64,000 nucleotides of DNA, from positions 678,201 through 742,200 of the forward strand of contig NZ_JADZLQ010000003.1 in the NCBI RefSeq assembly GCF_015905305.1, given 5' to 3'. This document shows positions 3,704-33,517 of this stretch, one piece after another. The notes under the pieces were generated by a model. It was not told the DNA's origin. It saw only the letters and a program-made list of their open reading frames with translations, and did not search any database. The DNA is from Pinirhizobacter soli (GTDB lineage: Bacteria; Pseudomonadota; Gammaproteobacteria; Xanthomonadales; Rhodanobacteraceae). Both the position numbers and the translations under genes were made by a program. The first letter of the stretch is position 1. Every line of letters starts with the position of its first letter.

Positions 3704-3761
3704 TGGTCGGTATCCCATGGTCGTTCCGGTTCCTGCCCGGTCGGCAGGCTGTGGCCGTCCA

Positions 3762-5099: not shown

Positions 5100-5150
5100 G
5101 GGGATGTCGCGTCCTGTTCGGGAAGTGGGTGGATGCAGCCTCGGAGAGGG

Positions 5151-6668: not shown

Positions 6669-6880
6669 GCGTCGTCACCGCTCCCGCACGGCGCGGCCGG
6701 CACGGGCCGGATCGCTGCACACGTGGCGCGGACGTGGCCGGCAGCGCCCTGCGCCGGTCGTACGACGGTGTCGTTGGCGCCGGTCGTCGCGCGCCTTGTC
6801 CGATGGAAGTGACGCATGGCAGGCCTCCCGTTACCGCCGGGATGCTGCAGCCGGCATGCCAGCGCCGCAATTGTGAAATC

Positions 6881-6894
6881 CACCAGCGCCGTGG
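6881..6894. promoter_or_regulatory. Candidate XylR operator in the divergent xylB / xylR promoter region. The core is CACCAGCGCCGTGG inside the palindrome ATCCAC-N7-GTGGAT at 6878-6896.
   Basis: This is a perfect 6-bp inverted repeat around a CAGCGCC core, and the core is repeated upstream of the TBDR gene (431-444). It lies about 100 bp upstream of the xylR ATG. Confidence 0.3.
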
Positions 6895-6992
6895 ATCTTT
6901 TTCTCTGTCGCATTGCGTCATGTCGGGCAGCGGCGGAACGAGTAGTGTCGCAAGTCTCTGCGCTGCCGCAGCAAGCCGGCTTCCGATACGCC

Positions 6993-8162
6993 ATGTCGTC
7001 ATCCCACCGCATCGCCCTGCTTTTCAACGCGAACAAGGTCTACGACCGGCAGGTCATCGCGGGCATCGGCCAGTACCTGAAGTCCACTCGCGTGGAGTGG
7101 GACCTCTTCATGGAGGAAGACTTCCTCTGCCGCACGCTGGGCATCCATCACTGGCGCGGCGACGGCATCATCGCCGACTTCGATGATCCTGCCGTGGCCG
7201 AAACGCTGGCGGACATGCCGATTCCCGTGGTAGCGGTCGGCGGCTCCTACGCCGATGCCGGCCAGTACCCCGTGCGCACGCCCTATGTGGCGACCGACAA
7301 CATCCGGCTGGTGCGCCTGGCGTACGACCACCTCATCGAGCAGGGCCTGGAGCGCTTCGCCTTCTACGGCCTGCCCCCCATGCCCGGCAACCGCTGGGCT
7401 CAGGAGCGCGAGAACGCGTTTCGCCGGATGATCGACGCCGACAAGCTGGAAGGGCTGGTTTACCGCGGCTCGCCCACCAGCGCGGGCGGCTGGGGCCGCG
7501 CGCAGGAGGACATGGTGGCATGGGTGCTCTCGTTACCCAAGCCGATCGGCATCATCGCCGTCACCGATGCGCGCGCGCGCCAGCTGCTGCAGGCCTGCGT
7601 AGTGGCGGACGTGCCGGTCCCAGACCAGATCGCCGTGGTCGGCATCGACAACGATCCGATGGCGCAATTGTTCAGCCGCATCACGCTCACCTCGGTGATC
7701 CAGGGCGCGGAGGAGATGGGCCGCGCGGCGGCACAGCTGCTGCACCAGATGATGCATGGTGGCGTGGCGGCCGGCACGCGCATCGTGGTGCCTCCGGTGG
7801 GCATCAACGTGCAGTCCAGCAGTCTGCACCAGCCGAGCAGGAGCCCGCACGTGATGCGTGCCAGGCACTACATCCGCCAGTACGCCTGCCTGGGCATCAA
7901 GACCGAGCAGGTGGCCGACTACGTGGGCATCTCGCGCACGCTGCTGGAAGAACATTTCAAGCGCGAACTGAAGAAGACCGTGCACCAGACCATCCTCGAG
8001 CACAAGCTGGAGATCGCGCGCGGCCTGCTCGCCGATCCGTCCATCCCGCTGGCCGACGTGGCGGTGCGTAGCGGCTTCACCTCGCTGCAATACATGTACG
8101 CAGTGTTCCGGCGCGAGTTCAACTGCACGCCGCGGCAGTTCGTCGAGAAGGCTGGGGTCTAG
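6993..8162 (+). CDS. xylR: Xylose operon regulator XylR: AraC-family activator with a periplasmic-binding-protein-like sensor domain, E. coli type.
   Basis: From the ATG at 6993: MSSSHRIALLFNANKVYDRQVIAGIGQYL...WDLFMEEDFL...GDGIIADFDD...GIIAVTDARARQLLQ...IDND, with a C-terminal AraC HTH. This is near-colinear with E. coli XylR (ITLLFNANKAYDRQVVEGVGEYL...IIAVTDARARHILQ). Confidence 0.9.
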   Translation: MSSSHRIALLFNANKVYDRQVIAGIGQYLKSTRVEWDLFMEEDFLCRTLGIHHWRGDGIIADFDDPAVAETLADMPIPVVAVGGSYADAGQYPVRTPYVATDNIRLVRLAYDHLIEQGLERFAFYGLPPMPGNRWAQERENAFRRMIDADKLEGLVYRGSPTSAGGWGRAQEDMVAWVLSLPKPIGIIAVTDARARQLLQACVVADVPVPDQIAVVGIDNDPMAQLFSRITLTSVIQGAEEMGRAAAQLLHQMMHGGVAAGTRIVVPPVGINVQSSSLHQPSRSPHVMRARHYIRQYACLGIKTEQVADYVGISRTLLEEHFKRELKKTVHQTILEHKLEIARGLLADPSIPLADVAVRSGFTSLQYMYAVFRREFNCTPRQFVEKAGV

Positions 8163-8770
8163 GGCCTGTTTATGGCCTCCCACCGCTCACTCTGTGGGAA
8201 TATCCGAACTGAGAGCGCTCGAGCCATAAGTGGCTGTCTAGCGAAGCCCCGGTCCGACTATAGCTTTCTGGGAATCATAAGTTGGCCATTCCGGCCAGAC
8301 CATGGCTTCCAGAACACTGGTGGGCGATCCAGCAATGATTGACCGCAGGGGTCCGCCATAATTTGTCCGTTGAAGCGGACATTTGTAGCAAAATCAAAGA
8401 ACTAGGCCCTTAATTGGTTTAGCAGAGCGCCCGATCTTACGCACATCGATGAAGTTGATCAGTAGGGCCGATCGATCATGATCAGCGCACCGGCATCCTG
8501 ATCAGCGTGAGGCCACCGGCCGGAATCGGCCACAACCAGGCGCACGCGAGGTGACTTTACACCGGACGTGGTGGTGAGAAGTAGCCATGGCACTAGACCC
8601 CCTGACGCGCGCGAAGGCCGAGATTGCACCGAGCGCCAAACAAACTGGACACCGCCGCCAGCCACCTGTGCGTTTGTTAAGCGCCGACCTCTTCACTTCG
8701 CTCCGTTCGAACAAGCCTTCCGTGGGAACGTACCCATGTCGACAGCACACTTATCGATGACAAACTGTGG

Positions 8771-9793
8771 ATGAGTCTTGGCCTACATCGCTTTTTAGCC
8801 CGGCCTACCATGTACGCAATGGTCGACGAAGCCACGCAGTTTATTCTTGCATACTGGATTTGCTTCGGACGCCGCGGCGGTGATGCATTGGCATGCTTGC
8901 TACGAGACTGCATTCGACGCCATGGCCGGTTGCCTTGGAGTACGGCCGTTGACCAGGGTGGTGAGAACATAGGTTTGTACTACACGGGCGTCACGGCCAT
9001 CCACGTGGTCGACTACGAACTGCGGGGCGCTAGTGCGTCACGGTGGGGCGGTGTCGTAGAAGCGTTTAATCACCGATCACAACAGCGCATCTTTCATCAA
9101 CTTCCCGGAAACACGAAAAATGACAGGCTGGGCCGGTCCGGCAACAAACAGACCCGTTCCGATGCTCACGCCAAGCTTGAGATACTTAGGTTCTTATGCC
9201 TTGCCGAAGACGGGATTAACCTCCTGAATGATCGACCAACCGGCACCGAGCTGCCTTCGCCTGGCGAGCTGCTTGAAGCAGGTAACAAGACGTTTGCCAC
9301 CCTCGCTCGCAGGATTGAGCTCACCGGTGAAGTATTGGCGGCGACGGCGATTCCCGTGGAAGAGCCACGCGTCATCCACTACAACAAGGGCATTCGCTTT
9401 GAACGTCGCGACTATACCGGCACCGCCCTTCACGACTCGCGCTTGGACGGACAAAAGGTCCCGATTCGCTACGAGCCATATGACCCCACAACGATCTACG
9501 CATGCATTCACGGCTCGTGGTACGCACTTCACAGTGCCGCGCATACGCGAGTTCAGCACCTTGACCAGTTAGCCAAAAACGCGGAACTGTATTATCAATT
9601 TGATACCGGCGGCGCGCAAAAGGCCAAGAAAAATGCTGTTGATTTCGATCTTGCGCGAGGTCAGGCAGACCACATTCGCGCGCAGGAACGGAGTGATTGT
9701 GAGCGACAAGAGGCGGCGCTCGCCAGTAGTGCAGAGGAAGACATTTTTGCGCAGATTAGGAGGGCTAACCATGCCAGAACTTCACAAGCATAA
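8771..9793 (+). pseudogene. 5'-truncated Mu/Tn7-type DDE transposase (TnsB/TniA-like). Only the C-terminal catalytic portion is present.
   Basis: The 340-aa ORF contains AVDQGGENIG (DxGxE-type second Asp region) and RWGGVVEAFNHRSQQRIFHQLPG (G.vERff.tl-type third-Glu region of rve-fold transposases). It lacks the first catalytic Asp and the N-terminal DNA-binding domains. An out-of-frame 68-aa ORF (8568-8774) lies directly upstream. Confidence 0.5.
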
Positions 9794-10889
9794 GGCTTCT
9801 CCGAACATTCCGCTTGCAATCCCTTGCGAAGCGTGTCCGCAAATTAACCATCGCAACTATGCAAATGCATTGCACGAAGCCCATGATGCAGCGTCGAGAG
9901 CAAGACGCGGCGACATCATACTCATTACTGGGGCTACCGGTGTCGGCAAGTCTCGACTGGCCGAAGATCTCAAGGATCTGTTGGTCGGACCTCCCTCGTC
10001 ATGGCCAGCTGGGGTTGTTCCGCTAGTTCATGTTGCCATCGATGTGGATAGTCGGGGTGTGGCCATGACAAAAAGTATGGTGATCGAGATCAACCGTCAA
10101 CTCGGCAATCCGATTTGTATGTCACCTGCAGAGTTAGCTGGCACGGCGGCATCGAGTTTCTCCATTCGAACTCGAACAACCGAAGGCGGCATGCGCGATA
10201 GCTTCCGCTACCTTGTGCAAGCTAGGCGAACACGATACGTCATAATCGATGAAATCCAGCACGTGAATCCGAAGCAGCGTGCAGCTGCGAATGCAAGACT
10301 GGAGAGCATCAAGATGCTAGCTGGATGCTCGCCTGATAAGCCAATGCCCGGTTCGGTCGTGCTCATTCTTATCGGGCACTATAGCCTCCTCGAGCTGCTG
10401 ACGGCCAACCGACAGTTGGCTCGACGCGTCACTCCTGTTCGCATGCGCGTTTACGACAAGGGCTCGCTTGCTGATATGAAGCAATGGGACTTTATCCTTA
10501 AGGCACTAAACGCCCGCTATCCGATGGGAAAGAATGACCTGAGCGACTGGAACGATGTGCTCTACAAGATGTCATTGGGAAATATCGGCATCCTGGTAAA
10601 GATTCTCGATGATTCTAATTCAGGGCGAAGGCGCCTAGGGCAACCAGCGTTCGACGCGTCGCATCTCCGCTTTGGAGCGCCCTCCAAGAACGTTTATGAG
10701 GCATACGTTAAGGAGATGGAAGAGGCATGTGAAGCGCTCGCTGAAGGTGACTGGTCGAGTGACATTCGCTTGCTAGCGCGTCGCGGCGGTGGTGCGCCAG
10801 AAGAAGTTTTGAAGACCAAAGTGAAACGTACTGGGAGGATAGGCAAGCGGAAAAATGGGCCGCGTGATCGTGTAGGAAGGAGCTCATGA
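9771..10889 (+). CDS. TniB/TnsC-like AAA+ ATPase (transposition regulator).
   Basis: The ATG at 9771 is preceded by AGGAGGG. Walker A is ILITGATGVGKSRLA and Walker B is YVIIDEIQHV. The start overlaps the stop of the transposase fragment, and the stop overlaps the tniQ start (ATGA). Confidence 0.6.
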   Translation: MPELHKHKASPNIPLAIPCEACPQINHRNYANALHEAHDAASRARRGDIILITGATGVGKSRLAEDLKDLLVGPPSSWPAGVVPLVHVAIDVDSRGVAMTKSMVIEINRQLGNPICMSPAELAGTAASSFSIRTRTTEGGMRDSFRYLVQARRTRYVIIDEIQHVNPKQRAAANARLESIKMLAGCSPDKPMPGSVVLILIGHYSLLELLTANRQLARRVTPVRMRVYDKGSLADMKQWDFILKALNARYPMGKNDLSDWNDVLYKMSLGNIGILVKILDDSNSGRRRLGQPAFDASHLRFGAPSKNVYEAYVKEMEEACEALAEGDWSSDIRLLARRGGGAPEEVLKTKVKRTGRIGKRKNGPRDRVGRSS

Positions 10890-12181
10890 CTCCTTTGATG
10901 TACGTGCCGCCGCTATATCACGAAGAGTACGGCATCGAGTCGCTATGCTCGTACGTGATGCGCATGTCCCGCCTTTTTGGGATCTCGGCGGGGCAAATGC
11001 TTCGATTCATTTCCGAGTCCGGGTCTACACCCGGACGGTACGATCCCGACTTTGCGATACCCGAACGTTATCCGGTCCGTTTGGCGGGCTATTCGCCTGC
11101 TGCTAAGCGATTCGCTATGCGAATCGATTACGGCATGAAGTCGGGGGACGCCAAAAAGATGACCATGCTGAAGGTCGGTCCTGCTCTCGCCGCAAATTGC
11201 ATGGGCATGATCAACAAGACATCCATGTATTGTCCTCTTTGTATACCGTATATGCTCGAACAGTCAGGAGGCATTTACTGGACCCCGCTGATATGGAGCC
11301 TTATAACGGCGGTCCGTTGCACAATCCACAAGTGCGAGTTGGTGGCCAACCCCAAACCGTGGTTGGAGCCCGATATCGTCCGCCCGCGTCTATCGGGCCT
11401 TAAGGAGGATGCAATCGCGGATTGGAACGTGGCCGAGAGCGTTAAACTGGTGCGATATACGTCTGGCGATGAGCCAGACGCAGTACGAGCCGAGGCTGTT
11501 TCCGCATTTCTCGCTGCCCTACGGCCAAAATACGAAACACTGACGGGCAAAGGCTTTGAGGCCCTATTGGGAGTGAGCAAACCGAATTACGAGCGACTGG
11601 TCGATCGCGTTAATCGACCAAGTCTGTCGATTGTATTTCGGTTTGGTGCGGCCTGCGCTATAAGCCCGCTCGATATCCTGACGCTGGGCGCGGAAGCTCT
11701 TTGCGCTGAAGACATGTTCGATTTGTCTGCAGCGCCGCGGCCACCACCGCGGTTCATAAAGAAGCCCCGCGCGCCAGAGCGAACAAAAGCGGAAATCAGG
11801 AAGGTTCTTCAAAGGGCTCTGTCCGGCAACGTTGCACCGGCTTCTCTCAAAGAAATTGGTCGGACCTTCAATGTCACGCCTGGCTATATACGGTATGCAC
11901 TCCCGCTGGAATCTTCAGAATACGCGGCCAAGAGGGCGCAGCGTCTCAACGAACTAGCAGCGGACCGGGCAAGGTCCGCACTGAAGGCATGCGAACAGTA
12001 TATCGCGCGTTACGGAAGCCCAAGCAACGAGCGCGAGGCTGTGCGTGGGTTGATGGGTGAAACGGGACTTCCGAAACACATTCTGGCTGATGCGTTGGAC
12101 GGTCTGCTACGGCCGCAGCGAAGCGGCCGACGGCCCTCGGTGGGCGTACAGCGGAGTCGCTTGAAGCAACGCGTCGACTGA
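10886..12181 (+). CDS. TniQ/TnsD-family transposition target-selection protein.
   Basis: The TniQ-type N-terminus has a zinc finger CPLCIPYM...C..H.C. It is 431 aa and sits in an operon after the ATPase. Confidence 0.55.
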   Translation: MTPLMYVPPLYHEEYGIESLCSYVMRMSRLFGISAGQMLRFISESGSTPGRYDPDFAIPERYPVRLAGYSPAAKRFAMRIDYGMKSGDAKKMTMLKVGPALAANCMGMINKTSMYCPLCIPYMLEQSGGIYWTPLIWSLITAVRCTIHKCELVANPKPWLEPDIVRPRLSGLKEDAIADWNVAESVKLVRYTSGDEPDAVRAEAVSAFLAALRPKYETLTGKGFEALLGVSKPNYERLVDRVNRPSLSIVFRFGAACAISPLDILTLGAEALCAEDMFDLSAAPRPPPRFIKKPRAPERTKAEIRKVLQRALSGNVAPASLKEIGRTFNVTPGYIRYALPLESSEYAAKRAQRLNELAADRARSALKACEQYIARYGSPSNEREAVRGLMGETGLPKHILADALDGLLRPQRSGRRPSVGVQRSRLKQRVD

Positions 12182-12210
12182 ATTACGTGATGTTCTAGAG
12201 GTCCAAGGCC

Positions 12211-12501
12211 ATGAAACTGATCCTTTGTCCGTCGTGCGAAGATGTTTTCAAACTTGCGCTTGATATTCGACGATGTACCTGCGGAAAGTCATGGGGACGC
12301 TACCTGGCGGGCGGCATCGATGCCGAGATCAGCGCGACGGCAGTTCCAATTGGCTTCGCCAATTCAACGCTACTCCGCGCGATTCGCTCGCGGCCAGATC
12401 ACGGGCTTGGCGTTCAGTTCACTGCCTTCGTGATCGCTCGCGAATGTGAGTCGATCTCCGTGCGTGGAGTCAACGAAGAACCGGATACCAGCGGTGGATA
12501 A
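12211..12501 (+). CDS. Hypothetical small zinc-ribbon protein.
   Basis: The 96-aa ORF has CPSC...CTCGK Cys pairs. It lies in island cargo and has no recognisable family. Confidence 0.3.
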   Translation: MKLILCPSCEDVFKLALDIRRCTCGKSWGRYLAGGIDAEISATAVPIGFANSTLLRAIRSRPDHGLGVQFTAFVIARECESISVRGVNEEPDTSGG

Positions 12502-12812
12502 AGCTGCCGCTCTTTGCGAACACGACAATCTTTATGCTGAAGTCATCGCGCGCCGTATTGTTCGCTTTCCTAGGCATTGGACAGGTGCTCCAAGCTCGGG
12601 TGTGCGTACTGATCTGTCTTGCGGCTTCGGCTTGCTTTCTGATGTATTTTCCTGCGGCGCGCTACGTTAAATATCAAGCCACAGTAACCGCGGGGCCAGC
12701 GAGCCGCCGAGTACACCACCTAAAGCCTGGCAGCCCAAATACCTCTCGAAATTGGGCGCCGACGTATGGGTGTCTTCGCCTTCCCGTTGTCCGGAATCGG
12801 AGCTTCGGTAGA

Positions 12813-13091
12813 ATGGCTACTATGGCCATCCGTCTCGAACTCCTGCTGATTGAGAGCGTCAACCTGGTCCGAGCGGTCGGCGAGGGTGACCTTTCCGAGG
12901 CCCAATTTCGAGCCAGCCAGGTCGGCGACCTTGCATGGGCAGACGGTAACTCTGCTGTCGGCAACGCCGCAACGAACCTGGAAGCGGCACTTCGCGATGC
13001 GGATACCCTGCCAAGTGAGGCCTATGAAGATCTTCTGGCGTATCTGCTTGCCGAGCTGGACGTGGTTTTGAAGCCGCTGCGCCACCAGTAG
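12813..13091 (+). CDS. Hypothetical protein.
   Basis: The ATG at 12813 is the distal part of the track ORF 12534-13091 and gives 92 aa. The assignment is weak. Confidence 0.2.
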   Translation: MATMAIRLELLLIESVNLVRAVGEGDLSEAQFRASQVGDLAWADGNSAVGNAATNLEAALRDADTLPSEAYEDLLAYLLAELDVVLKPLRHQ

Positions 13092-13267
13092 GGCGTCGAA
13101 CGCGCATCAGCTCTTACGGGACAGCCCGGGAAGACAGACCAATCCGCACTTTGGTCTTCAACTAGGCACCTGCAGGAATCGCCTGATGGCGACAGCCTGT
13201 GGTCTCTTGTGGTGTCAGTCTTTGGAATGTGTAGCATTGACCGTGACCTCGTTCTCTCCCAGGCCTT

Positions 13268-14269
13268 ATGACTACAGAGCAGATTTTGCACGTCGACGTT
13301 AGTCCGCCGACCTCCTCATTACCCGATTTCCCGACTGTTAGCGACGAGCTCATGCGTGCTGTCGCCGAACTAGTAACGGCCAAATACGCCGCTGAGGCAG
13401 CTCGTCGAACGGAGGTCGGTCTTCTGCTCGATCGAGCTATTCCAGGTGCGAACTACAGCACGATCGATAGCTTTGCATTTGCCCGTGCTTGCCTCCCTTT
13501 CCTGGACCTTCCCTCTAATTCCGACATACCTCTGCGCGTTCCAGTGCGCTGCGTGATGGGTGAGAGTTGGAGGTGGCGACCAGAGCATGTGGATTCGGAG
13601 AATGCTGAGGCTCTAACCATGTTTTTTCTCGATGACGTACGAAGTCAGCGCGGTGCGAAAGAGTGTGCTTCCCAGTTCGCTTGGCCTGCGCTGGGACTAG
13701 TGATTGCTCACGAGGGGAAGAACCGCATTGCCTTCCTGCGCCAGATAGGGGCGGCCAGCATGCCTGCGTCAGTTACCTTGATCGACTACCCAGGTGCCGA
13801 GCGAATTTCCGCGTACAACGTCCATGTTCACGGCCGGGAGGAGGTCTGGGGCGTGCTCGACGATCGGTGGGTCGAGCCTATTCCCTTGTACTGGCTAGGT
13901 AGGGCTGTTTTGGCATCCTATGGCGTTGCGCCGTTGACCCCTTGGCCGCGGAACTTCCCTTCCCCAGAGATGATCGTGGACGCTTCCAACCCAAGCGCTG
14001 GTCGGCCCGACTTAGAACAAATCCTCGAGGATTTGCGACGAGGCGAAGAGAAGGTGGCGGTTGCGCTCTGCGACGTACCGCAAATGAAACCAAACCTTAT
14101 GCGCTGGGCGATTCTTTGGCTTGGGCTGTTTAGTTCGGCGGCAGTCCTCTACGGACTTGGGGACACTGCAAGTAAGGTGGCTTGTGTACTGATCGGGGCA
14201 GGAACCGGAGGGAGCATTTTCTGGCAGCTGCGGTGGTTCACTGCCCGACGAGCCTGGCTCAATACGTGA
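13268..14269 (+). CDS. Hypothetical protein with a C-terminal double TM anchor.
   Basis: The 333-aa ORF has an internal VIAHEGKNRIAFL stretch, faintly ParB/DGQHR-like. Its C-terminal end (WAILWLGLFSSAAVLYGL...VACVLIGAGTGGSIFW) is hydrophobic. Confidence 0.4.
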   Translation: MTTEQILHVDVSPPTSSLPDFPTVSDELMRAVAELVTAKYAAEAARRTEVGLLLDRAIPGANYSTIDSFAFARACLPFLDLPSNSDIPLRVPVRCVMGESWRWRPEHVDSENAEALTMFFLDDVRSQRGAKECASQFAWPALGLVIAHEGKNRIAFLRQIGAASMPASVTLIDYPGAERISAYNVHVHGREEVWGVLDDRWVEPIPLYWLGRAVLASYGVAPLTPWPRNFPSPEMIVDASNPSAGRPDLEQILEDLRRGEEKVAVALCDVPQMKPNLMRWAILWLGLFSSAAVLYGLGDTASKVACVLIGAGTGGSIFWQLRWFTARRAWLNT

Positions 14270-14344
14270 TCTGAGGTAAAGCTCATCCCGTCATCACCGC
14301 TTAGACAGTTTGGTATAGTCGAAACCCTGCAGACTTAGCAGTCG

Positions 14345-14372
14345 CCTTCCGGCGGCATCGGCAAGCGGAAGG
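14345..14372. terminator. Hairpin between convergent genes (CCTTCCG-N14-CGGAAGG), with no T-run.
   Basis: A 7-bp perfect inverted repeat lies between the 13268-14269 (+) gene and the 14402-15313 (-) gene. Confidence 0.2.
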
Positions 14373-14401
14373 ACGGACCGATGAATCCACAACCATGTGA
14401 C

Positions 14402-15313
14402 CTAGTCAACCGAAATGTCTTCTATTTCGCCGATCTTCTGAAATTCCTTCAGGTACTCGGGGCGATGACGTGCGAGCCAACCAACCACTAGTGCATTTGC
14501 GAGCCACTTGCTGAAGTGTCCCTTTACAATTGTTAGGTGAAGCACGTCCGGACCGTACGAATCTTCGACTGTGCTCGTTTGCATTTGCAACGCGGCCAGC
14601 TCCCGTTCCATACGGGCGATCGAACCGGCCGTAACGGCGTTCCCCGCAGTCGCCTTGCTTTCGAACGCCAGCATCGCGGGTGGTGTCGCGGCCAGCATTG
14701 CGTTCGCGAACTGCACGGAGAAATTTCTGTTGCCTACCATCAGTTCGGCCGCTTCGATCTGGCGAAGGGGCTTCATCTGGCGAAGGACGTCAAACACCTT
14801 GCCAGGACAGGGAGCATCGGCGAGCAGTCCGACGGCATCCTCACAGATCCCATTCAGTAGCCGGAATCGATGAAGAATGGTCTCGGCGGAAATCGCAAGC
14901 GACTTTGCGAGGCGCTCAGCGGATACGCCGCGCTCCATAGCACGGACGATCATTTTATGATCCTGAATGGCCGACAGGCGACTTACGCGCTTATTGTAAG
15001 TGTAGGTATCGTCATCGTCGCTAACGAGGCAATCGGCCTCATTCCAACCAAGATCGCGTAGAGCAACAAGTCGGAGATGGCCGTCTACAAGAAAGTACTG
15101 GCCCGGTTGCTTTGGTGCCTTTGTCACAACTGGCGCCTCGACGAGCCCGACTTCTTCAATTGACGCTAGGATCTGCTGATACTTAATGGTGCTCTTAATA
15201 CTGGGCCGCATTACTTTCAGCGGAAGAATGTTCGAAAGTGGAATTCGTACATGCGCCCCCGAGAAGTTGGTTTTGATACGCGGCCCATCGATAGCGGAAT
15301 TTTCTGTGCTCAT
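14402..15313 (-). CDS. ParB-like nuclease-domain protein (ParB/Srx superfamily).
   Basis: The 303-aa ORF carries the ParB N-domain motif YFLVDGHLRLVALRDLG and an HTH-like middle region (SAERLAKSLAISAETI). Confidence 0.6.
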   Translation of the reverse strand: MSTENSAIDGPRIKTNFSGAHVRIPLSNILPLKVMRPSIKSTIKYQQILASIEEVGLVEAPVVTKAPKQPGQYFLVDGHLRLVALRDLGWNEADCLVSDDDDTYTYNKRVSRLSAIQDHKMIVRAMERGVSAERLAKSLAISAETILHRFRLLNGICEDAVGLLADAPCPGKVFDVLRQMKPLRQIEAAELMVGNRNFSVQFANAMLAATPPAMLAFESKATAGNAVTAGSIARMERELAALQMQTSTVEDSYGPDVLHLTIVKGHFSKWLANALVVGWLARHRPEYLKEFQKIGEIEDISVD

Positions 15314-16206
15314 ACTTGCGCACCCTTGATTCGCTCTTCGATGAGCTTAGGAAGCGAATCGAGCTTCTCGTGCCGTAGTAAGTCAAGGAATTCGCTGTTA
15401 TCCAGCAGTTCTTTTATTGCCTGGATTGAAAAAACCAATCGGTCATGGACGAATGCCGCCTTCTTGATAACAAGTCGCTGCCGCTCAGCCTCTCGCTCGA
15501 ATATCCTTCGGATGTCGGCAGCCGTCAGTTGCTTGCGCTCTCGGGGGCCAGTTTTATCGGATGAGCCGATTTTAGGCCGCTTCTTAGCTCGGGCTTCTAG
15601 TAGTCGCCGTAGCCGGGTTAGCTTCTTGCCCCGAAAACCTTGTTCGTAGGCATCGGCGAGCATTCCTTGAATCTCGTTGCTGCTGCTCTTGGCGATCTCC
15701 GTCGCCATGCTGAGCGGAATCATATCGCCCTCGACGGCAGCGAGAAGTTTCTCCTCACCCCGCTCGATGAGATTTCCGACCAAGCTGACCCATGCGGAAC
15801 TCACTCCAATGATATTGGCTACTTCTTGGTCCGTATGACCTCGTTCCCGGAGTCGCCCAATCTCTCTCATGAAGTCAATGCCGGGATGAGATCGTCTCGC
15901 CACGTTCTCCACGAGGCTCATCACCAGGCAATCTTCTTCCGTCGCATCGATCACAACGGCAGGGACCGTTGTCTGCCCGAGAAGGGCTAACGCCTCGATC
16001 CTGCCTTGCCCACAAACCAGTTGGTAGGCGTGACCGGATGTCGACGGCGTGCGACTTACAGTGACGGGTCTCTTTAAGCCCGTCAGCCGTATGTTCTCCA
16101 CCAATTCGGTATGGACCCTCTTACTGCGAGAGCGGGGATTAAGGATATGGATATCTGATATCCGTATGTCTTGAACCTGGCCCTTGGGTGACGCAACTGC
16201 GTTCAT
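15310..16206 (-). CDS. ParB-like nuclease-domain protein, the second of a pair.
   Basis: The 298-aa ORF has YQLVCGQGRIEALALLG (ParB GxxR box) and an HTH (TDQEVANIIGVSSAWV). It shares a 4-bp overlap with the downstream ParB-like gene and is translationally coupled to the recombinase gene upstream. Confidence 0.6.
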   Translation of the reverse strand: MNAVASPKGQVQDIRISDIHILNPRSRSKRVHTELVENIRLTGLKRPVTVSRTPSTSGHAYQLVCGQGRIEALALLGQTTVPAVVIDATEEDCLVMSLVENVARRSHPGIDFMREIGRLRERGHTDQEVANIIGVSSAWVSLVGNLIERGEEKLLAAVEGDMIPLSMATEIAKSSSNEIQGMLADAYEQGFRGKKLTRLRRLLEARAKKRPKIGSSDKTGPRERKQLTAADIRRIFEREAERQRLVIKKAAFVHDRLVFSIQAIKELLDNSEFLDLLRHEKLDSLPKLIEERIKGAQV

Positions 16207-17768
16207 GCGGCCTCCCGCAGGTGAACCCGCGCAGCGAGTTCCCCCAGAATGTCGAGGTCATCGAATCTGTATCCATCAATGAACGGTGAATTTTCAAGTC
16301 CGACGTGTCGGGGCCACATAGCCATATCGAGGCGGGGTATGAGGTAATAGTCCCGGACTGCATCATTTGCCTCGTTCATTCGCACGGCCACAGTGATATC
16401 GGGGCGAAGCTCGACATCGAAGCGCACGTTCCAGCGCAATGACGCTGGGGGCTGCTGGAAACACCGAGCAAGAACGACCGACGCAGTCCATTCCTGATTG
16501 ACCGTGAGCAGGTCCGTGTCCGGATGCTGCCGCACACTTCCGTTGACCCTCAAGGCGCGCACGACTTCGTCGACCAGCTTAGGCCGACTCGCCCGAAGCT
16601 TCCGATTGACCTCAAGAAACCGAAAATCCCGCCCGCTGTCGTATCCGATTAGTGCATAGGCACGAACCAAGCCACCGAACCGCTGTCGGTATGACACACT
16701 GGACGGCATGTCTTCCTGTTCGTCGATGACAAGCCCAGAGAGAGCCTGCACCCGGTCGGCGAGGCGTCGAAGCAGTTCCAGCATCTGGTGATCTTGAAGG
16801 CGTATCGAACGATCGGCGATGATCTCTCGAACACGCAAAAATGCAGACGGCGAAACGATTCCCTCGAATGCACCGTCGCATCGCACCCAAGCTTCTGGCG
16901 GGTTATGTATGGTCGGCTTCTTTAGTTTTGCTGACGTCCGATTGTAGACGTTGTTTCCAATGTACTTTTCATTTGTCAGAACCTGATGGACAGTGCCACG
17001 TGACCAAGGCCGCTCGAAATCCGTAAGTATGCCCTCGTCGTTTAACTCGGCTGCTATCGAGTTCTCGCCAAGATGGCGGCTGAGGAACGCCTCGTAGATT
17101 CTGTGTACGATGGCAACTTCGTCGGAAGGGCCCGCGACCAACACAATCCGATCGGTCTGGATGCTTTTCTGTTGCCCCCTGACGAGAATACTTTTGAACG
17201 AGCGATTTTCGTCAATGAGCGCCCTGCGCAGACCAAATCCTGGCGCCCCGCCTTGATGGAAGCCGAGGCTTACCAGTCGACATTGCCCGGCAAAGACCTT
17301 TGCCGAGAGTTCCCGACTGTACTCCGCTGCCATGCTCCGCTTTACGCCTTTGACGATCGTCGCCAGAGGCGTGCCGTCGTTCTCAAAAGGCTCGGCACAG
17401 TAAATTACCCTCACGCCGGCTTTTGTACACAGGTACTCGTAGTGCGCCGACTCATCGGAGTTCTGAAAGCGCCCCCAACGGCTGATGTCAAATACTAGGA
17501 TGGCACTGAAGTTGAGCCTTCCGCCCTGGACGTCTCGCAGAAGTTGCTGCAATCCGAATCGACGGCCAATTTCAAGCCCACTCTTTCCGTCATCCTCGTA
17601 CGTACGGACCACGTCCATGCCGTGCTCGACTGCGTACTGCCGAATGGCCGCGGCCTGGTTCGCGGTAGAGTATTTTTGGTGGTCCGTGGACATGCGCACA
17701 TATTCGGCCACTTGAATCCGGCCAGTTGGCGCTGAACTTTCTGAAATAAGATGCGGTGCCATAGGCAC
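16203..17768 (-). CDS. Large serine recombinase.
   Basis: The resolvase catalytic N-domain reads VAEYVRMSTDHQKYSTANQ and is followed by recombinase and zinc-ribbon-type C-terminal extensions, 521 aa in total. Confidence 0.8.
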   Translation of the reverse strand: MPMAPHLISESSAPTGRIQVAEYVRMSTDHQKYSTANQAAAIRQYAVEHGMDVVRTYEDDGKSGLEIGRRFGLQQLLRDVQGGRLNFSAILVFDISRWGRFQNSDESAHYEYLCTKAGVRVIYCAEPFENDGTPLATIVKGVKRSMAAEYSRELSAKVFAGQCRLVSLGFHQGGAPGFGLRRALIDENRSFKSILVRGQQKSIQTDRIVLVAGPSDEVAIVHRIYEAFLSRHLGENSIAAELNDEGILTDFERPWSRGTVHQVLTNEKYIGNNVYNRTSAKLKKPTIHNPPEAWVRCDGAFEGIVSPSAFLRVREIIADRSIRLQDHQMLELLRRLADRVQALSGLVIDEQEDMPSSVSYRQRFGGLVRAYALIGYDSGRDFRFLEVNRKLRASRPKLVDEVVRALRVNGSVRQHPDTDLLTVNQEWTASVVLARCFQQPPASLRWNVRFDVELRPDITVAVRMNEANDAVRDYYLIPRLDMAMWPRHVGLENSPFIDGYRFDDLDILGELAARVHLREAA

Positions 17769-18006
17769 CTCGACGTACTAAATGGTCCCCCAGATCGGCG
17801 ACGCTACTCTGACTCGCACCCGGTGCTGTGACGCAGTACGCAAATCGAACTGTCTTGTGAACGGCAGTTCCAGCAGGCGCGGTGAACGACGTCGCCCGGG
17901 CAATGGTCATCGCGCCATCGATAGCGCACCTATGTAGCCACATATACGGGACTCTTCGGTCCCCTGCAATGCGCACTTCAAGTCTTAGTCGAGTAGTTGG
18001 CGGAGG

Positions 18007-18528
18007 TCAGCCCGCTGCCGACAACGCTCCTGCTAGCTTACTGCGGGGCCGGCGCGTTTTAGGCTTAATATGTTGTGCGTGCAGTTGCTGACGCACCTCC
18101 ATTAATAGCAGGCCCAACATATTCCGGCCCACTCCATTTACCTCTCCCCATAGGCGGTTCACTTCGTTGTCAACCGTTGCTGATTCCACCAATCGGGCCT
18201 CGCCAGTGCTTAGCAGGAGTTGCTTGAGATCCTCGTGCTGAGTGAACTTCGCAACCAGCACTCGGCGCATACGGTCGAACTTATTCGTCGACCAGCCGGG
18301 GGTGATATCCCAGTAATAGAGTCCATGCGCCGCCATGGCGAGTAGCGCCGGGGACGGTGCAGACAACAGCCAATCTCGAACAGCTGGCTTACGCGCTTTG
18401 CCCGCCTGGTAGGCGTGCTCGGAAGTTGGGTAAATCACGCCATCGAGTTCGATGGAGCGTTTATACAGGTTGCTAAACGCCCCATAGGGTTGCTCGTTTG
18501 CCCTGTAGAACCGGATTTCAGCGGCCAT
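18007..18528 (-). CDS. NADAR-domain protein (YbiA/DUF1768 family N-glycosidase-like).
   Basis: FYRANEQPYGAFSNLY...YPTSEHAYQAGK...WDITPGWSTNKF are NADAR hallmarks, in a 173-aa ORF. Confidence 0.65.
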   Translation of the reverse strand: MAAEIRFYRANEQPYGAFSNLYKRSIELDGVIYPTSEHAYQAGKARKPAVRDWLLSAPSPALLAMAAHGLYYWDITPGWSTNKFDRMRRVLVAKFTQHEDLKQLLLSTGEARLVESATVDNEVNRLWGEVNGVGRNMLGLLLMEVRQQLHAQHIKPKTRRPRSKLAGALSAAG

Positions 18529-18589
18529 ATTGCCCTCCTGTCGCTGTCAGCTTAAACTAATTTAAAATAACAATCAATGAATTCTAAAG

Positions 18590-18961
18590 TTGAAACGTCC
18601 TGGACGTCCACGCGCTGCTCGAGATGCCGAAGCCGCAGAAATGCAGGCGCGTTCGATCGAGGCTCTGCGCGCGAGAAAATTAAAAAAGAAGGACTTGGCG
18701 AAACGAATCGAACGCTCCGTGAGTGCGGTAGGGCACGCGCTTAGAGCTTCGCCTCCTCAAAAGTCGGACACGCTTCAAGATATTTTTAATTATTTCTTTC
18801 CGCCTCAAGATGAGGTGACCCTGGCCCTGCACGCGCGTCAGCTGGCTCTGCAGGCACCCGAAACGGCGGCCCTGCTGTCGGCGGTTTTTCGGGATTTGGC
18901 GGATCTGCTGGTTAGCGCCCCAGAGGTGGGACAGTTCAATCCGGACAAGCAGCGCAGCTGA
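18590..18961 (+). CDS. Possible small HTH regulator, XRE-like.
   Basis: The track ORF starts at TTG, and an internal ATG gives MQARSIEALRARKLKKKDLAKRIERSVSAVGHAL (helix-turn-helix-like). It is divergent from the NADAR gene across an AT-rich spacer, and its 3' end overlaps the PfkB gene 3' end by about 25 bp. Confidence 0.3.
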   Translation: MKRPGRPRAARDAEAAEMQARSIEALRARKLKKKDLAKRIERSVSAVGHALRASPPQKSDTLQDIFNYFFPPQDEVTLALHARQLALQAPETAALLSAVFRDLADLLVSAPEVGQFNPDKQRS

Positions 18962-28328: not shown

Positions 28329-29353
28329 TAGAACAGTTGTAACAGATGTGACGCTCTGGAATGTAAAGCCTTAATCAGGCTTTTGCCATTTACCGCCTCA
28401 TCATTGTCTCGACTAACTTTGAGTTCGATCTCATCTTTGATGAGCGAGTGGCTTAGCCAATAGACTTTTGGGTCGCCCTTCAATACAAATCCGTAATCCT
28501 CATACCGAGTCCTTGAAGAATCTTTCCAAGCCTTAATCATAGTTAGTAGTTCGGAGCGCGAAACTGTCTTGGAGACTTGATATTGGATCGGGACGCCCTT
28601 CGTACCGCCAGGTTGCACCGCACTCATGTGCGCCCGCCTAAGGAATCGCTGCCATAACTCGAGATCGTCGCTACTCCTTAAGTTGAGCAGCGTTTTTCGG
28701 ATTACCTTGGTGATGCGAGCGTAATTATCGACTAGATCTTTGTGATGAGCTTGATTGACAGCTGCTTTCGTACGGAAACGAGGGTATAAATCAAGCGCTG
28801 GTGTATTTGGATTTCCAGGGCTGGTGGAATAGCCGATAATTTTCGTCCGGTCACTTGGGTCGCGCACTACAAACGAAGAGCTCCATTTTAAATATGACTC
28901 CATGTATTTTTGAAACGCAGACTGACCATTCTGCGAATGCTGAAAGGTGACCGTAGCCAGCACGTTTTTTGACGGGATAACCCAAAAATACGTGGCGTGA
29001 CCGGGGATCGTATTTTTTGATACCTTGTTCATAACCACTGTGCCGGAGCCAACCGTCGCTTGGCGCGGCACTGACGCCACTCTTCCGTTCGTCGAGGCGG
29101 CCTCGTTCCACGTAGTTACGAGAAAGTCTCCGCCAGAGTTTTGGCAGATGTCAAAAAGATAAGTGCCAGCGTCATCTCCAGACCCCGGACTCAATGTGTC
29201 CTCAAAGTTTTTTCCCGCTGACCAGGCAAGCGTGTCGCCCAGAACCGTTGAAGCACCTCCAAACTGTTCTTTCGTCGGCTGTGCGAACGCGTAATAGCCA
29301 CAGGCTTCAATGTTGTAAAAGGCAATTTTTGCCAACTCGGCTCTAACCGACAT
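28328..29353 (-). CDS. Hypothetical protein, first gene of the island's minus-strand cargo cluster.
   Basis: The 341-aa ORF has no recognisable motif. An AT-rich promoter region and a direct-repeat region lie upstream (29354-29703). Confidence 0.45.
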   Translation of the reverse strand: MSVRAELAKIAFYNIEACGYYAFAQPTKEQFGGASTVLGDTLAWSAGKNFEDTLSPGSGDDAGTYLFDICQNSGGDFLVTTWNEAASTNGRVASVPRQATVGSGTVVMNKVSKNTIPGHATYFWVIPSKNVLATVTFQHSQNGQSAFQKYMESYLKWSSSFVVRDPSDRTKIIGYSTSPGNPNTPALDLYPRFRTKAAVNQAHHKDLVDNYARITKVIRKTLLNLRSSDDLELWQRFLRRAHMSAVQPGGTKGVPIQYQVSKTVSRSELLTMIKAWKDSSRTRYEDYGFVLKGDPKVYWLSHSLIKDEIELKVSRDNDEAVNGKSLIKALHSRASHLLQLF

Positions 29354-29605
29354 CCCCTAACTCCATCCGTGTTTCGGGGCAATTTACTCCCGGGAGGGAC
29401 TACGCGCTATCAGCGAAAGCCTACAAGCTGGACGAGGGGTCGGAATGCGGGTACGAATCCCGACCTGATGGCGTGCTGCTTTCAACAGGCAACGCTTAGC
29501 TCGACGTCTACGGTGGCAAACGGGCAGCCGAAATGGAGCGCTCTTCCCAAGTTTGGGTGACGTGCGAGGGTGCGTAAAACGCTTGTATTAAAGGTTCGCG
29601 ACTGG

Positions 29606-29650
29606 AAACCAGTCGAAAGCGTCAATCCGAAAACCAGTCGAAAGTGTCAA
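29606..29650. repeat. Two 20-bp direct repeats (AAACCAGTCGAAAGCGTCAA / AAACCAGTCGAAAGTGTCAA) 25 bp apart, about 55 bp from the tRNA 3' end. Candidate transposase/recombinase binding sites (element end).
   Basis: 19 of 20 positions are identical. They lie at the island / tRNA junction, and a TGT/ACA dinucleotide-type terminus candidate sits at 29677-29679. Confidence 0.4.
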
Positions 29651-29703
29651 AAGTGACGTTTGACGCTGGGATAACTACAGGCGTCACTGGCCTGCACTTT
29701 GAT

Positions 29704-29781
29704 TGGTGGGCCCACCAGGACTCGAACCTGGAACCAAAGGATTATGAGTCCTCTGCTCTAACCATTGAGCTATAGGCCCGC
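29704..29781 (-). tRNA. tRNA with anticodon CAT (Met, or lysidine-type Ile2), with an encoded CCA.
   Basis: The reverse complement reads GCGGGCCTATAGCTCAATGGTTAGAGCAGAGGACTCATAATCCTTTGGTTCCAGGTTCGAGTCCTGGTGGGCCCACCA. It forms a cloverleaf with a GGTTCGAGTCC T-arm and a CTCATAA anticodon loop. Confidence 0.85.
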
Positions 29782-29907: not shown

Positions 29908-30111
29908 ATGAAACGACTGATTGCCAGCGCCTGCCTCACCCTGGCCGCGGCCTTTGCCGCGCCGGCTGTGTTCGCCCAGCCTTACCCGCCGCATCATGTG
30001 ATTCATCACCCCGTGCATCATGTACCGCCGCATCGGGTGGTCCATCACCGCGTCGTTCATCACCGCGTGGTGCACCATCCGGTCCATCGGACGGTCGTCA
30101 TCCATCACTGA
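29908..30111 (+). CDS. Small secreted histidine-rich protein, a possible periplasmic metal-binding peptide.
   Basis: The ATG at 29908 follows a GGAGG motif. The translation is MKRLIASACLTLAAAFAAPAVFAQPYPPHHVIHHPVHHVPPHRVVHHRVVHHRVVHHPVHRTVVIHH, a signal peptide followed by HHxVV repeats, and the repeats are tandem at the DNA level. Confidence 0.5.
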   Translation: MKRLIASACLTLAAAFAAPAVFAQPYPPHHVIHHPVHHVPPHRVVHHRVVHHRVVHHPVHRTVVIHH

Positions 30112-33099: not shown

Positions 33100-33471
33100 A
33101 TGAGCACTGAATCGGTAGCCAAGCGTTTGGTGGAGCTGTGTCGGAGCGGTGAGTTCGAGGCGGCGCAAAAGGAGCTTTACGCGCAGGATGCCGAAAGCTT
33201 CGAGGCGCCGGGTTCACACCAGGCCGATATGGGCGACGTCAAGGGATTGGACGCGATTTTCAAGAAGGGCGAGGCCTTCCAGGCGAGCGTGAAGGAAATG
33301 CACGGCGTCAAGATCAGCGACGCCACCGTGGCCGGCAACTGGTTCAGCCTCGCGATGACCTTGGACGTGACGATGAAGGAACACGGCCGCATAGAGATGA
33401 CCGAAATTTGCGTCTATCACGTGAAGAACGACAAGATCGATCGCGAGCAGTTCTTCTACGATATGGGGTGA
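33100..33471 (+). CDS. SnoaL/NTF2-like small protein.
   Basis: The 123-aa ORF has an alpha+beta cone pattern (VAKRLVELCRSGEFEAA...WFSLAMTLDVTMKEHGRIEMTEICVYHV). Confidence 0.45.
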   Translation: MSTESVAKRLVELCRSGEFEAAQKELYAQDAESFEAPGSHQADMGDVKGLDAIFKKGEAFQASVKEMHGVKISDATVAGNWFSLAMTLDVTMKEHGRIEMTEICVYHVKNDKIDREQFFYDMG

Positions 33472-33517
33472 GCTTTAGGGTAGTGGAGAAAGTGCCCGCG
33501 AACGCGGGCTCTTTCTT

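What the first reader, a model, noticed from the sequence alone, without database searches (positions are those of the whole stretch)
8163..29703. AT-richer accessory island of about 21.5 kb inserted between xylR and a tRNA(CAT) gene.
Composition changes abruptly at the xylR stop and again exactly at the 3' end (CCA) of the tRNA. Everything in between is mobile-element or cargo type: transposition genes, recombinase, ParB-like proteins and defence-like genes. No tyrosine integrase is present, and I found no convincing direct repeat of the tRNA 3' end at the other boundary (only an 8-bp match at 8318-8326). The island is therefore probably old or composite and no longer excisable.
Basis: seen in the sequence. 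Interest (0 to 1): 0.6.

Follow-up and report, generated by a model that had tools for sequence, protein, structure and literature searches.

The report
Decayed tRNA-targeting Tn7-like transposon island
The low-GC island is real, but it is a disabled Tn7-like transposon carrying defence-type genes that inserted 24 bp behind a tRNA gene, which is an ordinary kind of island from a rarely sampled transposon branch.

Summary
The GC drop (about 0.56 against 0.65-0.68 in the flanks) and the mobile/cargo gene content are confirmed. Two genomes 99.8% identical in the flanks lack the island and fix the strain-specific DNA at 8693-29679, not 8163-29703.

The segment is best read as one Tn7-like transposon of the TnsAB-fusion clade. 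That clade homes to tRNA genes through a TnsD-like TniQ.
- It keeps tnsC/tniB, tniQ and the 3' 1.1 kb of tnsAB.
- One repeat-bearing end stops at ...ACTACA, 24 bp behind the tRNA(CAT) 3' end.
- The only relatives found form a cargo-less element of about 5.6 kb. It has the same end repeats, spacing and orientation, beside tRNA-Arg(CCG).
- The other end, about 427 codons of tnsAB, and an adjacent ECF sigma/anti-sigma pair seen in the relatives are missing. This is inferred to be one deletion, so the element is immobile.

This explains the absent integrase and the absent tRNA repeat.

Cargo:
- a serine-recombinase/ParB trio;
- a conserved six-gene CARF6/PRTase cluster;
- a PDC-M18 pair.

"Old" is not supported. 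No genome shows xylR directly beside the tRNA. The site is an insertion hot spot. Verdict: new member of a known kind, with modest interest.

The parts
6816..8162 (+). xylR (left chromosomal flank; annotated start in relatives corresponds to about 6993)
   Evidence: Pfam PBP1_XylR, Peripla_BP_3 and HTH_18; 99.8% identical in L081/L082
8163..8692 (.). Low-GC (0.57) non-coding stretch shared with island-free strains; not part of the strain-specific element
   Evidence: Window 1-8692 aligns to L081/L082 at 99.84-99.88%; the first mismatch is at 8693
8693..29679 (.). Strain-specific segment (20,987 bp): truncated Tn7-like transposon with cargo
   Evidence: Replaces L081 5766-9422 and L082 7181-9419; GC 0.556
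8693..9793 (+). 3' part of tnsAB (DDE core plus Mu-transposase_C); about 427 N-terminal codons missing
   Evidence: Aligns to residues 428-757 of the 800-aa homolog, 41% identity. Aligns to PmcCAST TnsAB 9bw1_M residues 511-848, E 6e-20. The likely DDE residues, identified by eye, are conserved in the two-sequence alignment. The frame is open only from 8681
9771..10889 (+). tnsC/tniB AAA+ regulator, full length
   Evidence: Pfam AAA_22 and TniB; PDB best hit PmcCAST TnsC 8fcu_Q, E 5e-7; 36% identical to P0003
10886..12181 (+). tniQ/tnsD-like target selector, full length
   Evidence: Pfam TniQ 29.3 bits against a cut-off of 27; 28% identical over the full length to the TniQ of the tRNA-Arg element; no other relative among 5.8 billion proteins
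12211..14269 (+). Three ORFs (96, 185 and 333 aa) without family assignment
   Evidence: No Pfam hit for any. No PADLOC hit. NCBIfam was run only on the 333-aa ORF and gave nothing significant
14402..17768 (-). Trio: RepB-C/ParB-like (14402-15313), ParB_N plus RepB (15310-16206), large serine recombinase (16203-17768)
   Evidence: Pfam. The same trio is conserved on an Agrobacterium plasmid, flanked there by TniA/B/Q modules, and on a Ralstonia megaplasmid
18007..26034 (-). Six-gene cluster: NADAR (18007-18528), PfkB (18936-19931), CARF6 (19910-21049), ORC/CDC6-like ATPase (21046-22983), PRTase-CE (22989-24176), SIS/HAD (24136-26034; the longest ORF runs to 26340)
   Evidence: Pfam, PADLOC and NCBIfam. 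The same order occurs in L094 and L095; L096 has the five-gene core without NADAR. All three lie beside known defence systems
26270..27532 (-). Predicted multi-pass membrane protein, no family
   Evidence: Hydrophobic segments in the translation; no family hits
27819..29353 (-). PDC-M18 candidate defence pair (B 27819-28328, A 28328-29353)
   Evidence: PADLOC PDC-M18B E 1.8e-66 and PDC-M18A E 4e-106; the 27700-29679 segment that holds the pair has GC 0.50
29608..29679 (+). tRNA-proximal transposon end: two 18-bp direct repeats ACCAGTCGAAAG[C/T]GTCAA (29608-29625 and 29633-29650, 25 bp apart), an inverted partial copy TTGACGCT, and the terminus ...ACTACA at 29679
   Evidence: The relative's repeat unit matches the window only here (0 expected). 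The architecture aligns with L085
29680..29703 (.). 24-bp chromosomal spacer between the transposon end and the tRNA; GGCGT next to the end is the expected position of a 5-bp target duplication
   Evidence: Conserved in L081/L082, identical in L082 and one G shorter in L081
29704..29779 (-). tRNA(CAT), the inferred attachment-site gene
   Evidence: ARAGORN; Rfam tRNA 74.6 bits

Best explanation
Positions 8693-29679 are a single Tn7-like transposon of the TnsAB-fusion, tRNA-homing clade. Inferred mechanism: the TnsD-like TniQ recognised the tRNA(CAT) gene, TnsC bridged it to the TnsAB transposase, and the element was inserted 24 bp downstream of the tRNA 3' end. The tniQ/cargo-side end faces the tRNA. 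The element brought about 17.5 kb of cargo: a serine-recombinase/ParB trio, a six-gene CARF6/PRTase cluster, a membrane protein and a PDC-M18 pair. A later deletion (inferred) removed the tnsAB-side end, the first 427 or so codons of tnsAB, and neighbouring DNA that includes an ECF sigma/anti-sigma pair. This left an immobile island fused to the xylR downstream region. The tRNA flank is a recurrent insertion hot spot in this species.
For: Shown: (a) Two genomes 99.8% identical in the flanks lack the segment. The junctions are at 8692/8693 and 29679/29680. (b) The TniA fragment matches PmcCAST TnsAB (9bw1_M, E 6e-20). Its 800-aa homolog matches TnsAB over both the N-terminal and C-terminal parts (E 9e-57). 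On plasmids that homolog hits cyanobacterial proteins annotated with TnsA domains. 9BW1 is identified as PmcCAST TnsABC in bioRxiv 10.64898/2026.05.29.728539. (c) TniB matches PmcCAST TnsC, and TniQ carries the Pfam TniQ domain. (d) The only relatives found (L083-L091) carry tnsAB-tnsC-tniQ. Within 160 bp of the tniQ stop they have two 18-bp repeats 25 bp apart, and about 50 bp further on lies the 3' end of tRNA-Arg(CCG). The window shows the same repeat unit, the same 25-bp spacing, 53 nt to the tRNA and the same orientation (chance expectation 0). This ties the tRNA-proximal end to the tnsAB-C-Q module. (e) Published behaviour of this clade (PMC9881144): most members sit at tRNA attachment sites chosen by a TnsD-like TniQ; insertions fall 29 +/- 1 bp after the tRNA in one orientation; TnsAB sites occur in both orientations in the target-proximal end. 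(f) L081 and L082 carry orphan repeat-rich ends of a different element at the same position, 23 and 24 bp from the tRNA. (g) No CRISPR array, cas gene or integrase is present. Inferred: binding of the tRNA gene by TniQ, the repeats acting as TnsAB-binding sites, and a single deletion event.
Against: Only one end survives, so the inverted-repeat pair and the 5-bp target duplication cannot be shown. In the cargo-less relative I could not find convincing inverted copies of the 18-bp repeat at the tnsAB side. Its left boundary (L083:160) is defined only by two diverging flanks. The TnsA part is absent from the window and is inferred from a homolog that is 41% identical. No intact copy of this exact element exists in the databases searched. 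PDC-M18 has a lower GC (0.50), so some cargo may have been acquired separately. The ECF pair is itself low-GC and is absent from other species, so the ancestral state of the interval is uncertain.
Confidence: 0.8

Rival explanations
1. Composite island: at least two independent elements accreted at the tRNA hot spot. The tRNA-proximal end, with some cargo such as PDC-M18, would belong to one Tn7-like element. The truncated tnsAB-tnsC-tniQ module would belong to another.
For: The site is used repeatedly, with different orphan ends in L081 and L082. The PDC-M18 segment has GC 0.50 against about 0.56 for the rest. The serine-recombinase trio is a self-contained module found elsewhere.
Against: The end repeats, their spacing and their orientation match the end that directly follows tniQ in the cargo-less relative of this very module. 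No second copy of the end motif and no other end-like repeat cluster was found inside the island. The rival also needs two end losses instead of one.
Confidence: 0.1
2. The large serine recombinase (16203-17768) integrated the island at this site. The Tn7-like genes would be passengers.
For: It is the only complete recombinase in the island. Large serine recombinases leave no long repeats.
Against: The cargo-less relative inserts at the equivalent position beside a tRNA and has no serine recombinase. The recombinase trio recurs on plasmids as a module, once flanked by TniA/B/Q modules. The junction carries a transposon-type end with repeated sites ending in CA.
Confidence: 0.06
3. A classical tRNA-integrating island whose tyrosine integrase and distal att repeat were lost. 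This is the reading implied by the first reader.
For: It is adjacent to a tRNA 3' end, has low GC and carries cargo genes.
Against: The junction is 24 bp outside the tRNA rather than inside its 3' end. The tRNA is not rebuilt from island DNA. No integrase fragment was detected. The end is homologous to a Tn7-like end.
Confidence: 0.03

Closest known systems
tRNA-targeting Tn7-like transposons with fused TnsAB (the clade containing PmcCAST type I-B2 and McCAST/CyCAST type I-D; Hsieh & Peters 2022, PMC9881144; Faure et al. 2023, PMC10293859)
   Same: It shares TnsAB/TnsC homology and a TniQ-family selector. Insertion falls a fixed short distance downstream of a tRNA gene in one orientation, 24 bp here against 29 +/- 1 bp or 30-33 nt in the published cases. 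The target-proximal end has sites in both orientations. It carries defence-rich cargo, as in Benler et al. 2021 (PMC8649781).
   Different: It has no CRISPR-Cas module and only one TniQ. The host is a gammaproteobacterium (Rhodanobacteraceae), whereas the described members are cyanobacterial. It is very divergent: 26-30% identity between the 800-aa homolog and cyanobacterial TnsAB on plasmids, and the TniQ has no relatives other than itself in the word-indexed search. The copy is truncated and immobile.
Tn7 at attTn7 (TnsABC plus TnsD, downstream of glmS)
   Same: A dedicated selector directs insertion just downstream of a conserved gene, without disrupting it.
   Different: TnsA and TnsB are fused, as seen in the homolog. 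The target is a tRNA gene. The end facing the target is the one distal to the tns genes. There is no TnsE.
Tn5053/Tn402 family (TniA-TniB-TniQ-TniR, res hunters)
   Same: The Pfam labels agree (Mu-transposase_C, TniB, TniQ), and a serine recombinase is present in the element.
   Different: The best structural homologs are TnsAB and TnsC of a Tn7-like CAST, not TniA. The target is a tRNA flank, not a res site. The recombinase is a 521-aa large serine recombinase paired with ParB-like genes, not a small TniR next to tniQ.
Integrase-type tRNA genomic islands
   Same: Position at a tRNA 3' end, low GC and accessory cargo.
   Different: No integrase and no att repeat are present, and the junction lies outside the tRNA.

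Membership tests
Tn7-like transposon, TnsAB-fusion tRNA-homing clade | DDE transposase homologous to TnsB | tested here: met
   The window fragment matches PmcCAST TnsAB residues 511-848, E 6e-20. Pfam Mu-transpos_C hit. The likely DDE residues, identified by eye, are conserved in the two-sequence alignment. The gene is truncated.
Tn7-like transposon, TnsAB-fusion tRNA-homing clade | TnsA endonuclease domain fused to TnsB | tested here: inconclusive
   This part is deleted in the window. The 800-aa homolog (41% identical in the shared part) aligns with PmcCAST TnsAB residues 8-253 and with plasmid proteins annotated as having TnsA N- or C-terminal domains.
Tn7-like transposon, TnsAB-fusion tRNA-homing clade | AAA+ regulator TnsC | tested here: met
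   Pfam AAA_22 and TniB; PDB TnsC of PmcCAST, E 5e-7, over residues 48-369.
Tn7-like transposon, TnsAB-fusion tRNA-homing clade | TniQ/TnsD-family target selector | tested here: met
   Pfam TniQ 29.3 bits, cut-off 27. Full-length 28% match to the TniQ of the tRNA-Arg element. DNA binding was not tested.
Tn7-like transposon, TnsAB-fusion tRNA-homing clade | Two ends carrying arrays of transposase-binding repeats | tested here: inconclusive
   One end is present (29608-29679). The other end is absent from the window.
Tn7-like transposon, TnsAB-fusion tRNA-homing clade | 5-bp target-site duplication | not testable with these tools
   The second junction has been deleted. GGCGT at 29680-29684 is the expected copy.
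Tn7-like transposon, TnsAB-fusion tRNA-homing clade | Orientation-specific insertion at a fixed short distance downstream of a tRNA gene | tested here: met
   The distance is 24 bp here. The relative lies about 23 bp from tRNA-Arg(CCG) in the same orientation, by alignment; its exact terminus is not fixed. Other elements sit 23 and 24 bp from the same tRNA in L081 and L082.
CRISPR-associated transposon (CAST) | cas genes and a CRISPR array inside the element | tested here: not met
   No tandem array, no Rfam CRISPR hit and no Cas family hits. CARF6 and the 'PRTase_III-A' family are accessory-type families only.
Integrase-type tRNA genomic island | Tyrosine integrase next to the tRNA, and a direct repeat of the tRNA 3' end at the far boundary | tested here: not met
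   No Phage_integrase hit. No such repeat. The junction is 24 bp outside the tRNA.
Tn5053/Tn402 family | Small TniR resolvase with a res site next to tniQ; insertion into res sites | tested here: not met
   The only serine recombinase is 521 aa, lies 4 kb from tniQ on the other strand and is paired with ParB-like genes. The target is a tRNA flank.

The most novel reading that the evidence does not exclude
The conserved six-gene cargo cluster (SIS/HAD, PRTase-CE, ORC/CDC6-like ATPase, CARF6, PfkB and NADAR; 18007-26034) may be an uncharacterised, CRISPR-independent defence system. In this reading it would make or sense a ribose-phosphate or nucleotide-derived signal. In the contexts examined it lies beside known defence systems. 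A second novel point is that the transposition module would mark an unsampled proteobacterial branch of tRNA-homing TnsAB transposons, of which an intact compact relative of about 5.6 kb exists.
Probability: 0.4. Interest if true: 0.65.

Novelty: new member of a known kind. Interest (0 to 1): 0.38.

Why it matters
The result turns an unexplained "island without an integrase" into a defined mechanism, and it corrects the boundaries to single-base resolution. It extends tRNA-homing TnsAB-fusion Tn7-like transposons from cyanobacteria to soil Gammaproteobacteria. These elements are of interest as compact site-specific DNA-insertion machines. It identifies an intact, cargo-less relative of about 5.6 kb with a different tRNA specificity that could be tested directly. 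It documents a tRNA flank that is hit repeatedly by such elements and that accumulates defence-type genes. It also flags a conserved six-gene CARF6/PRTase cluster for which I found no description.

Tried and rejected
- **Empty site in other species.** I searched 80 xylR loci from the genome collection and scanned 67 of them for tRNAs. No tRNA(CAT) lies downstream of xylR within the fetched flanks of up to 10 kb. There is no synteny with the window's right flank. Only exact-protein look-up of the DUF2170 neighbour found close strains.
- **The missing end.** I searched the window for an inverted copy of the end repeat and found none.
- **Intact copies of the element.** TniQ has no relatives and no plasmid hit. 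TniB gave only a 36% relative. The metagenome scan with a TnsAB alignment found one locus, which is the same element as L083. The viral scan found nothing.
- **Left end of the cargo-less relative.** There is no clear inverted repeat. The boundary is inferred only from diverging flanks.
- **CAST hypothesis.** Rejected, because there are no arrays or cas genes.
- **Tyrosine-integrase island.** Rejected.
- **Literature on the CARF6/PRTase-CE cluster.** Nothing was found.
- **Pfam and NCBIfam on the 800-aa homolog.** Pfam returned nothing and NCBIfam only one non-significant hit. Only the search of solved structures identified it.
- **The tRNA-like 3' fragment in L081.** Rfam did not confirm it.


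Full report
**Observation**

The window is GC-rich: 0.684 for 1-8162 and 0.650 for 29780-64000. In 200-bp windows the fall starts at the xylR stop, and the rise starts just beyond the tRNA. ARAGORN and Rfam agree on a single tRNA(CAT) at 29704-29779 on the minus strand.

- a Mu-transposase_C fragment, TniB and TniQ on the plus strand;
- two ParB/RepB-like proteins and a 521-aa large serine recombinase on the minus strand;
- a run of defence-type genes on the minus strand.

No tyrosine integrase was found among the island ORFs scanned, and the tRNA 3' end is not repeated.

**Finding the comparison genomes**

An xylR-based scan of one genome per species returned Dyella, Rhodanobacter, Luteibacter and Pinirhizobacter loci at only about 65-87% protein identity. 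In the 67 loci scanned, no tRNA(CAT) lies downstream of xylR within the fetched flanks of up to 10 kb. None share the window's right flank. The proposed empty site, with xylR directly beside the tRNA, therefore does not exist in the species sampled.

Exact look-up of the DUF2170 protein next to the tRNA found two genomes, GCA_015905225.1 (L081) and GCA_015905245.1 (L082). They match the window at 99.5-99.9% on both sides. The source species is Pinirhizobacter soli, according to the name attached to the window's own TniQ.

**True boundaries**

The window matches both relatives up to 8692, and the first mismatch is at 8693. It matches them again from 29680. The strain-specific DNA is therefore 8693-29679, which is 20,987 bp.

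Positions 8163-8692 are a low-GC (0.57) non-coding stretch that the island-free strains also carry.

In place of the island, the relatives have an ECF sigma factor, a 192-aa partner protein, and 0.7-2.1 kb of strain-specific DNA next to the tRNA. That ECF pair is itself low-GC (0.546). It is absent from the window and from all 80 xylR loci of other species. The whole xylR-tRNA interval is thus accessory DNA in every strain.

**What the element is**

The frame of the "TniA" ORF is open only from 8681, and island DNA begins at 8693, 15 codons before a WERTHVDST motif. This fragment aligns with residues 428-757 of an 800-aa protein from the only relatives found (41% identity). About 427 N-terminal codons are therefore missing. 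The likely catalytic DDE residues, which I identified by eye, are conserved in the two-sequence alignment.

Several comparisons place the module in the TnsAB-fusion clade:
- The 800-aa protein matches the PmcCAST TnsAB chain (PDB 9bw1_M) over both its N-terminal part (8-251) and its C-terminal part (346-715), E 9e-57.
- The window fragment matches the same chain at E 6e-20.
- A preprint that uses the structure identifies 9BW1 as PmcCAST TnsABC.
- On plasmids, the 800-aa protein hits mostly cyanobacterial proteins annotated as carrying TnsA domains.
- The window's TniB matches PmcCAST TnsC.
- The TniQ passes the Pfam threshold.

The module is therefore a Tn7-like TnsAB-TnsC-TniQ set belonging to the TnsAB-fusion clade. 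There is no CRISPR array and there are no cas genes, so it is not a CAST.

**Linking the tRNA-side end to this module**

Just inside the right junction the sequence reads ACCAGTCGAAAGCGTCAA, then 7 bp, then ACCAGTCGAAAGTGTCAA. A 29-bp terminal segment follows. It contains an inverted TTGACGCT and ends in ...ACTACA at 29679. After that come 24 bp of chromosome and then the tRNA 3' end.

The relatives (L083-L091, at most 5.8 kb) share this layout. They are identical copies seen in many sequencing runs. They encode a 119-aa protein, TnsAB (800 aa), TnsC (356 aa) and TniQ (428 aa) with no cargo. Within 160 bp of the tniQ stop they carry two copies of ACCACTAGAAAGTGTCAA, also 25 bp apart. About 50 nt further on lies the 3' end of tRNA-Arg(CCG).

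Used unchanged as a probe, the relative's repeat unit matches the 64-kb window only at the two positions above, where none is expected by chance. The two ends align in register up to the tRNA. The repeat-bearing end therefore belongs to this transposon family. The orientation, with the tniQ/cargo side facing the tRNA, is a family trait. The simplest reading is one element spanning 8693-29679.

**Agreement with published behaviour**

Hsieh and Peters (PMC9881144) report the following for the TnsAB-fusion clade:
- most members sit at tRNA attachment sites chosen by a TnsD-like TniQ;
- insertions fall 29 +/- 1 bp after the tRNA with more than 99% orientation bias;
- TnsAB sites occur in both orientations in the target-proximal end;
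- a TGT/ACA terminus is not obligatory.

Faure et al. (PMC10293859) report homing 30-33 nt downstream of a tRNA for CyCAST. Benler et al. (PMC8649781) describe tRNA flanks as safe sites. Their title and abstract report that Tn7-like elements carry a wide range of cargo genes, including many defence systems.

**Mechanism and history**

Shown:
- homology of the three transposition proteins;
- one transposon end;
- its fixed distance from a tRNA, here and in the relative;
- absence of the element from near-identical strains.

Inferred:
- TniQ recognised the tRNA(CAT) gene;
- the 18-bp repeats bind TnsAB;
- one deletion later removed the tnsAB-side end, the 5' 1.3 kb of tnsAB, and neighbouring DNA including the ECF pair. 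It ended 75 bp upstream of where the ECF gene starts in the relatives.

With one end and the N-terminal half of the transposase gone, the element cannot move. "Old" is not supported. The flanks are 99.8% identical to strains without the island. TnsC and TniQ are full length relative to their homologs, and the cargo ORFs are uninterrupted.

**Hot spot**

L081 and L082 each carry a cluster of GGCCRAACTWTG sites in both orientations, found only within 100-230 bp of the same junction. These clusters end in ...GCGCA, 23 and 24 bp from the tRNA. The two versions are similar but not identical, although the flanks are more than 99% identical. I read them as orphan ends of related elements of another type.

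L081 also holds two genes there, one with a TIR-like effector hit. Three different elements have therefore used the same position, to within 1 bp.

**Cargo**

- The serine-recombinase/ParB/ParB trio is a conserved module on alpha- and betaproteobacterial plasmids. In one Agrobacterium plasmid it is flanked on both sides by TniA/B/Q modules. Its role here is unknown.
- The six genes from 18007 to 26034 recur in the same order in a Rhodanobacter MAG and in Xanthomonas arboricola. A third genome has the five-gene core without NADAR. In those genomes the cluster lies next to a type ISP restriction enzyme, Hachiman and AbiE, respectively. The genes encode SIS/HAD, PRTase-CE, an ORC/CDC6-like ATPase, CARF6, PfkB and NADAR. 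PADLOC has models for the CARF6 and PRTase components. I found no paper describing the cluster.
- A PDC-M18 candidate pair lies directly inside the transposon end.

**Rivals**

- A composite of two Tn7-like elements cannot be excluded, because PDC-M18 has lower GC and the site is reused. It would need two end losses, and it conflicts with the match between the end and the module.
- Integration by the serine recombinase is unlikely, because the cargo-less relative occupies the equivalent site without one.
- A decayed integrase island is contradicted by the junction lying outside the tRNA and by the transposon-type end.

**Verdict**

This is a real island, correctly spotted. It is a truncated tRNA-homing Tn7-like transposon with defence-type cargo, and so a new and unusually divergent member of a known kind. 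Interest is modest. The most novel leads are the uncharacterised six-gene cluster and the intact compact relative.

Noticed in passing
window 18007-26034 (-); L094 5034-13022; L095 5036-13043; L096 4998-12219: A conserved cluster: SIS/HAD (about 635 aa), PRTase-CE, ORC/CDC6-like ATPase, CARF6, PfkB and NADAR (NADAR missing in L096). It is always in the same order, and in the other three genomes examined it lies beside known defence systems (type ISP restriction enzyme, Hachiman, AbiE). No description was found in the literature searched.
   Followed up: partly
window 27819-29353 (-): A PDC-M18 B/A candidate defence pair (PADLOC E 1.8e-66 and 4e-106). Its GC is 0.50, lower than the rest of the island, and it lies directly inside the transposon end.
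   Followed up: no
L081 7270-9422 and L082 8685-9419: Orphan repeat-rich ends (GGCCRAACTWTG in both orientations) of a different element lie 23-24 bp from the same tRNA. L081 adds two genes, one with a TIR-like effector hit, and a tRNA 3'-end-like fragment at 9219-9245 that Rfam did not confirm.
   Followed up: partly
L081 5841-6966 / L082 7256-8381: An ECF sigma factor plus a 192-aa partner (GC 0.546) lies between xylR and the tRNA in the island-free strains. The pair is absent from the window and from all 80 xylR loci of other species, so it is itself accessory DNA.
   Followed up: yes
L083-L091 (for example L083 160-5790; L085 4992-5068): An intact, cargo-less Tn7-like element of about 5.6 kb: a 119-aa protein, TnsAB of 800 aa, TnsC of 356 aa and TniQ of 428 aa. 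It sits next to tRNA-Arg(CCG) and is seen identically in many sequencing runs. Its tnsAB-side end could not be defined.
   Followed up: partly
L092 (Agrobacterium pAtCFBP6623a) 1-11563: The serine-recombinase/RepB/RepB trio sits between two inverted TniA-TniB-TniQ modules. This suggests a recurrent association of the trio with TniABQ-type transposons.
   Followed up: no
window 29704-29779 (-): From memory, the tRNA(CAT) resembles E. coli ileX (tRNA-Ile2, lysidine-modified) more than elongator tRNA-Met. This was not tested.
   Followed up: no
window 29909-30111 (+): A 67-aa secreted-looking ORF with a histidine-rich repeat (HHxVHH...) lies immediately beyond the tRNA. It is conserved in L081 and L082.
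   Followed up: no
window about 33469-33527; L082 13227-13874: L082 carries an extra NYN-domain gene that is absent from the window and from L081. This is a second small strain-variable spot. The window also shows GC dips at 33-36 kb and 58-60 kb.
   Followed up: no
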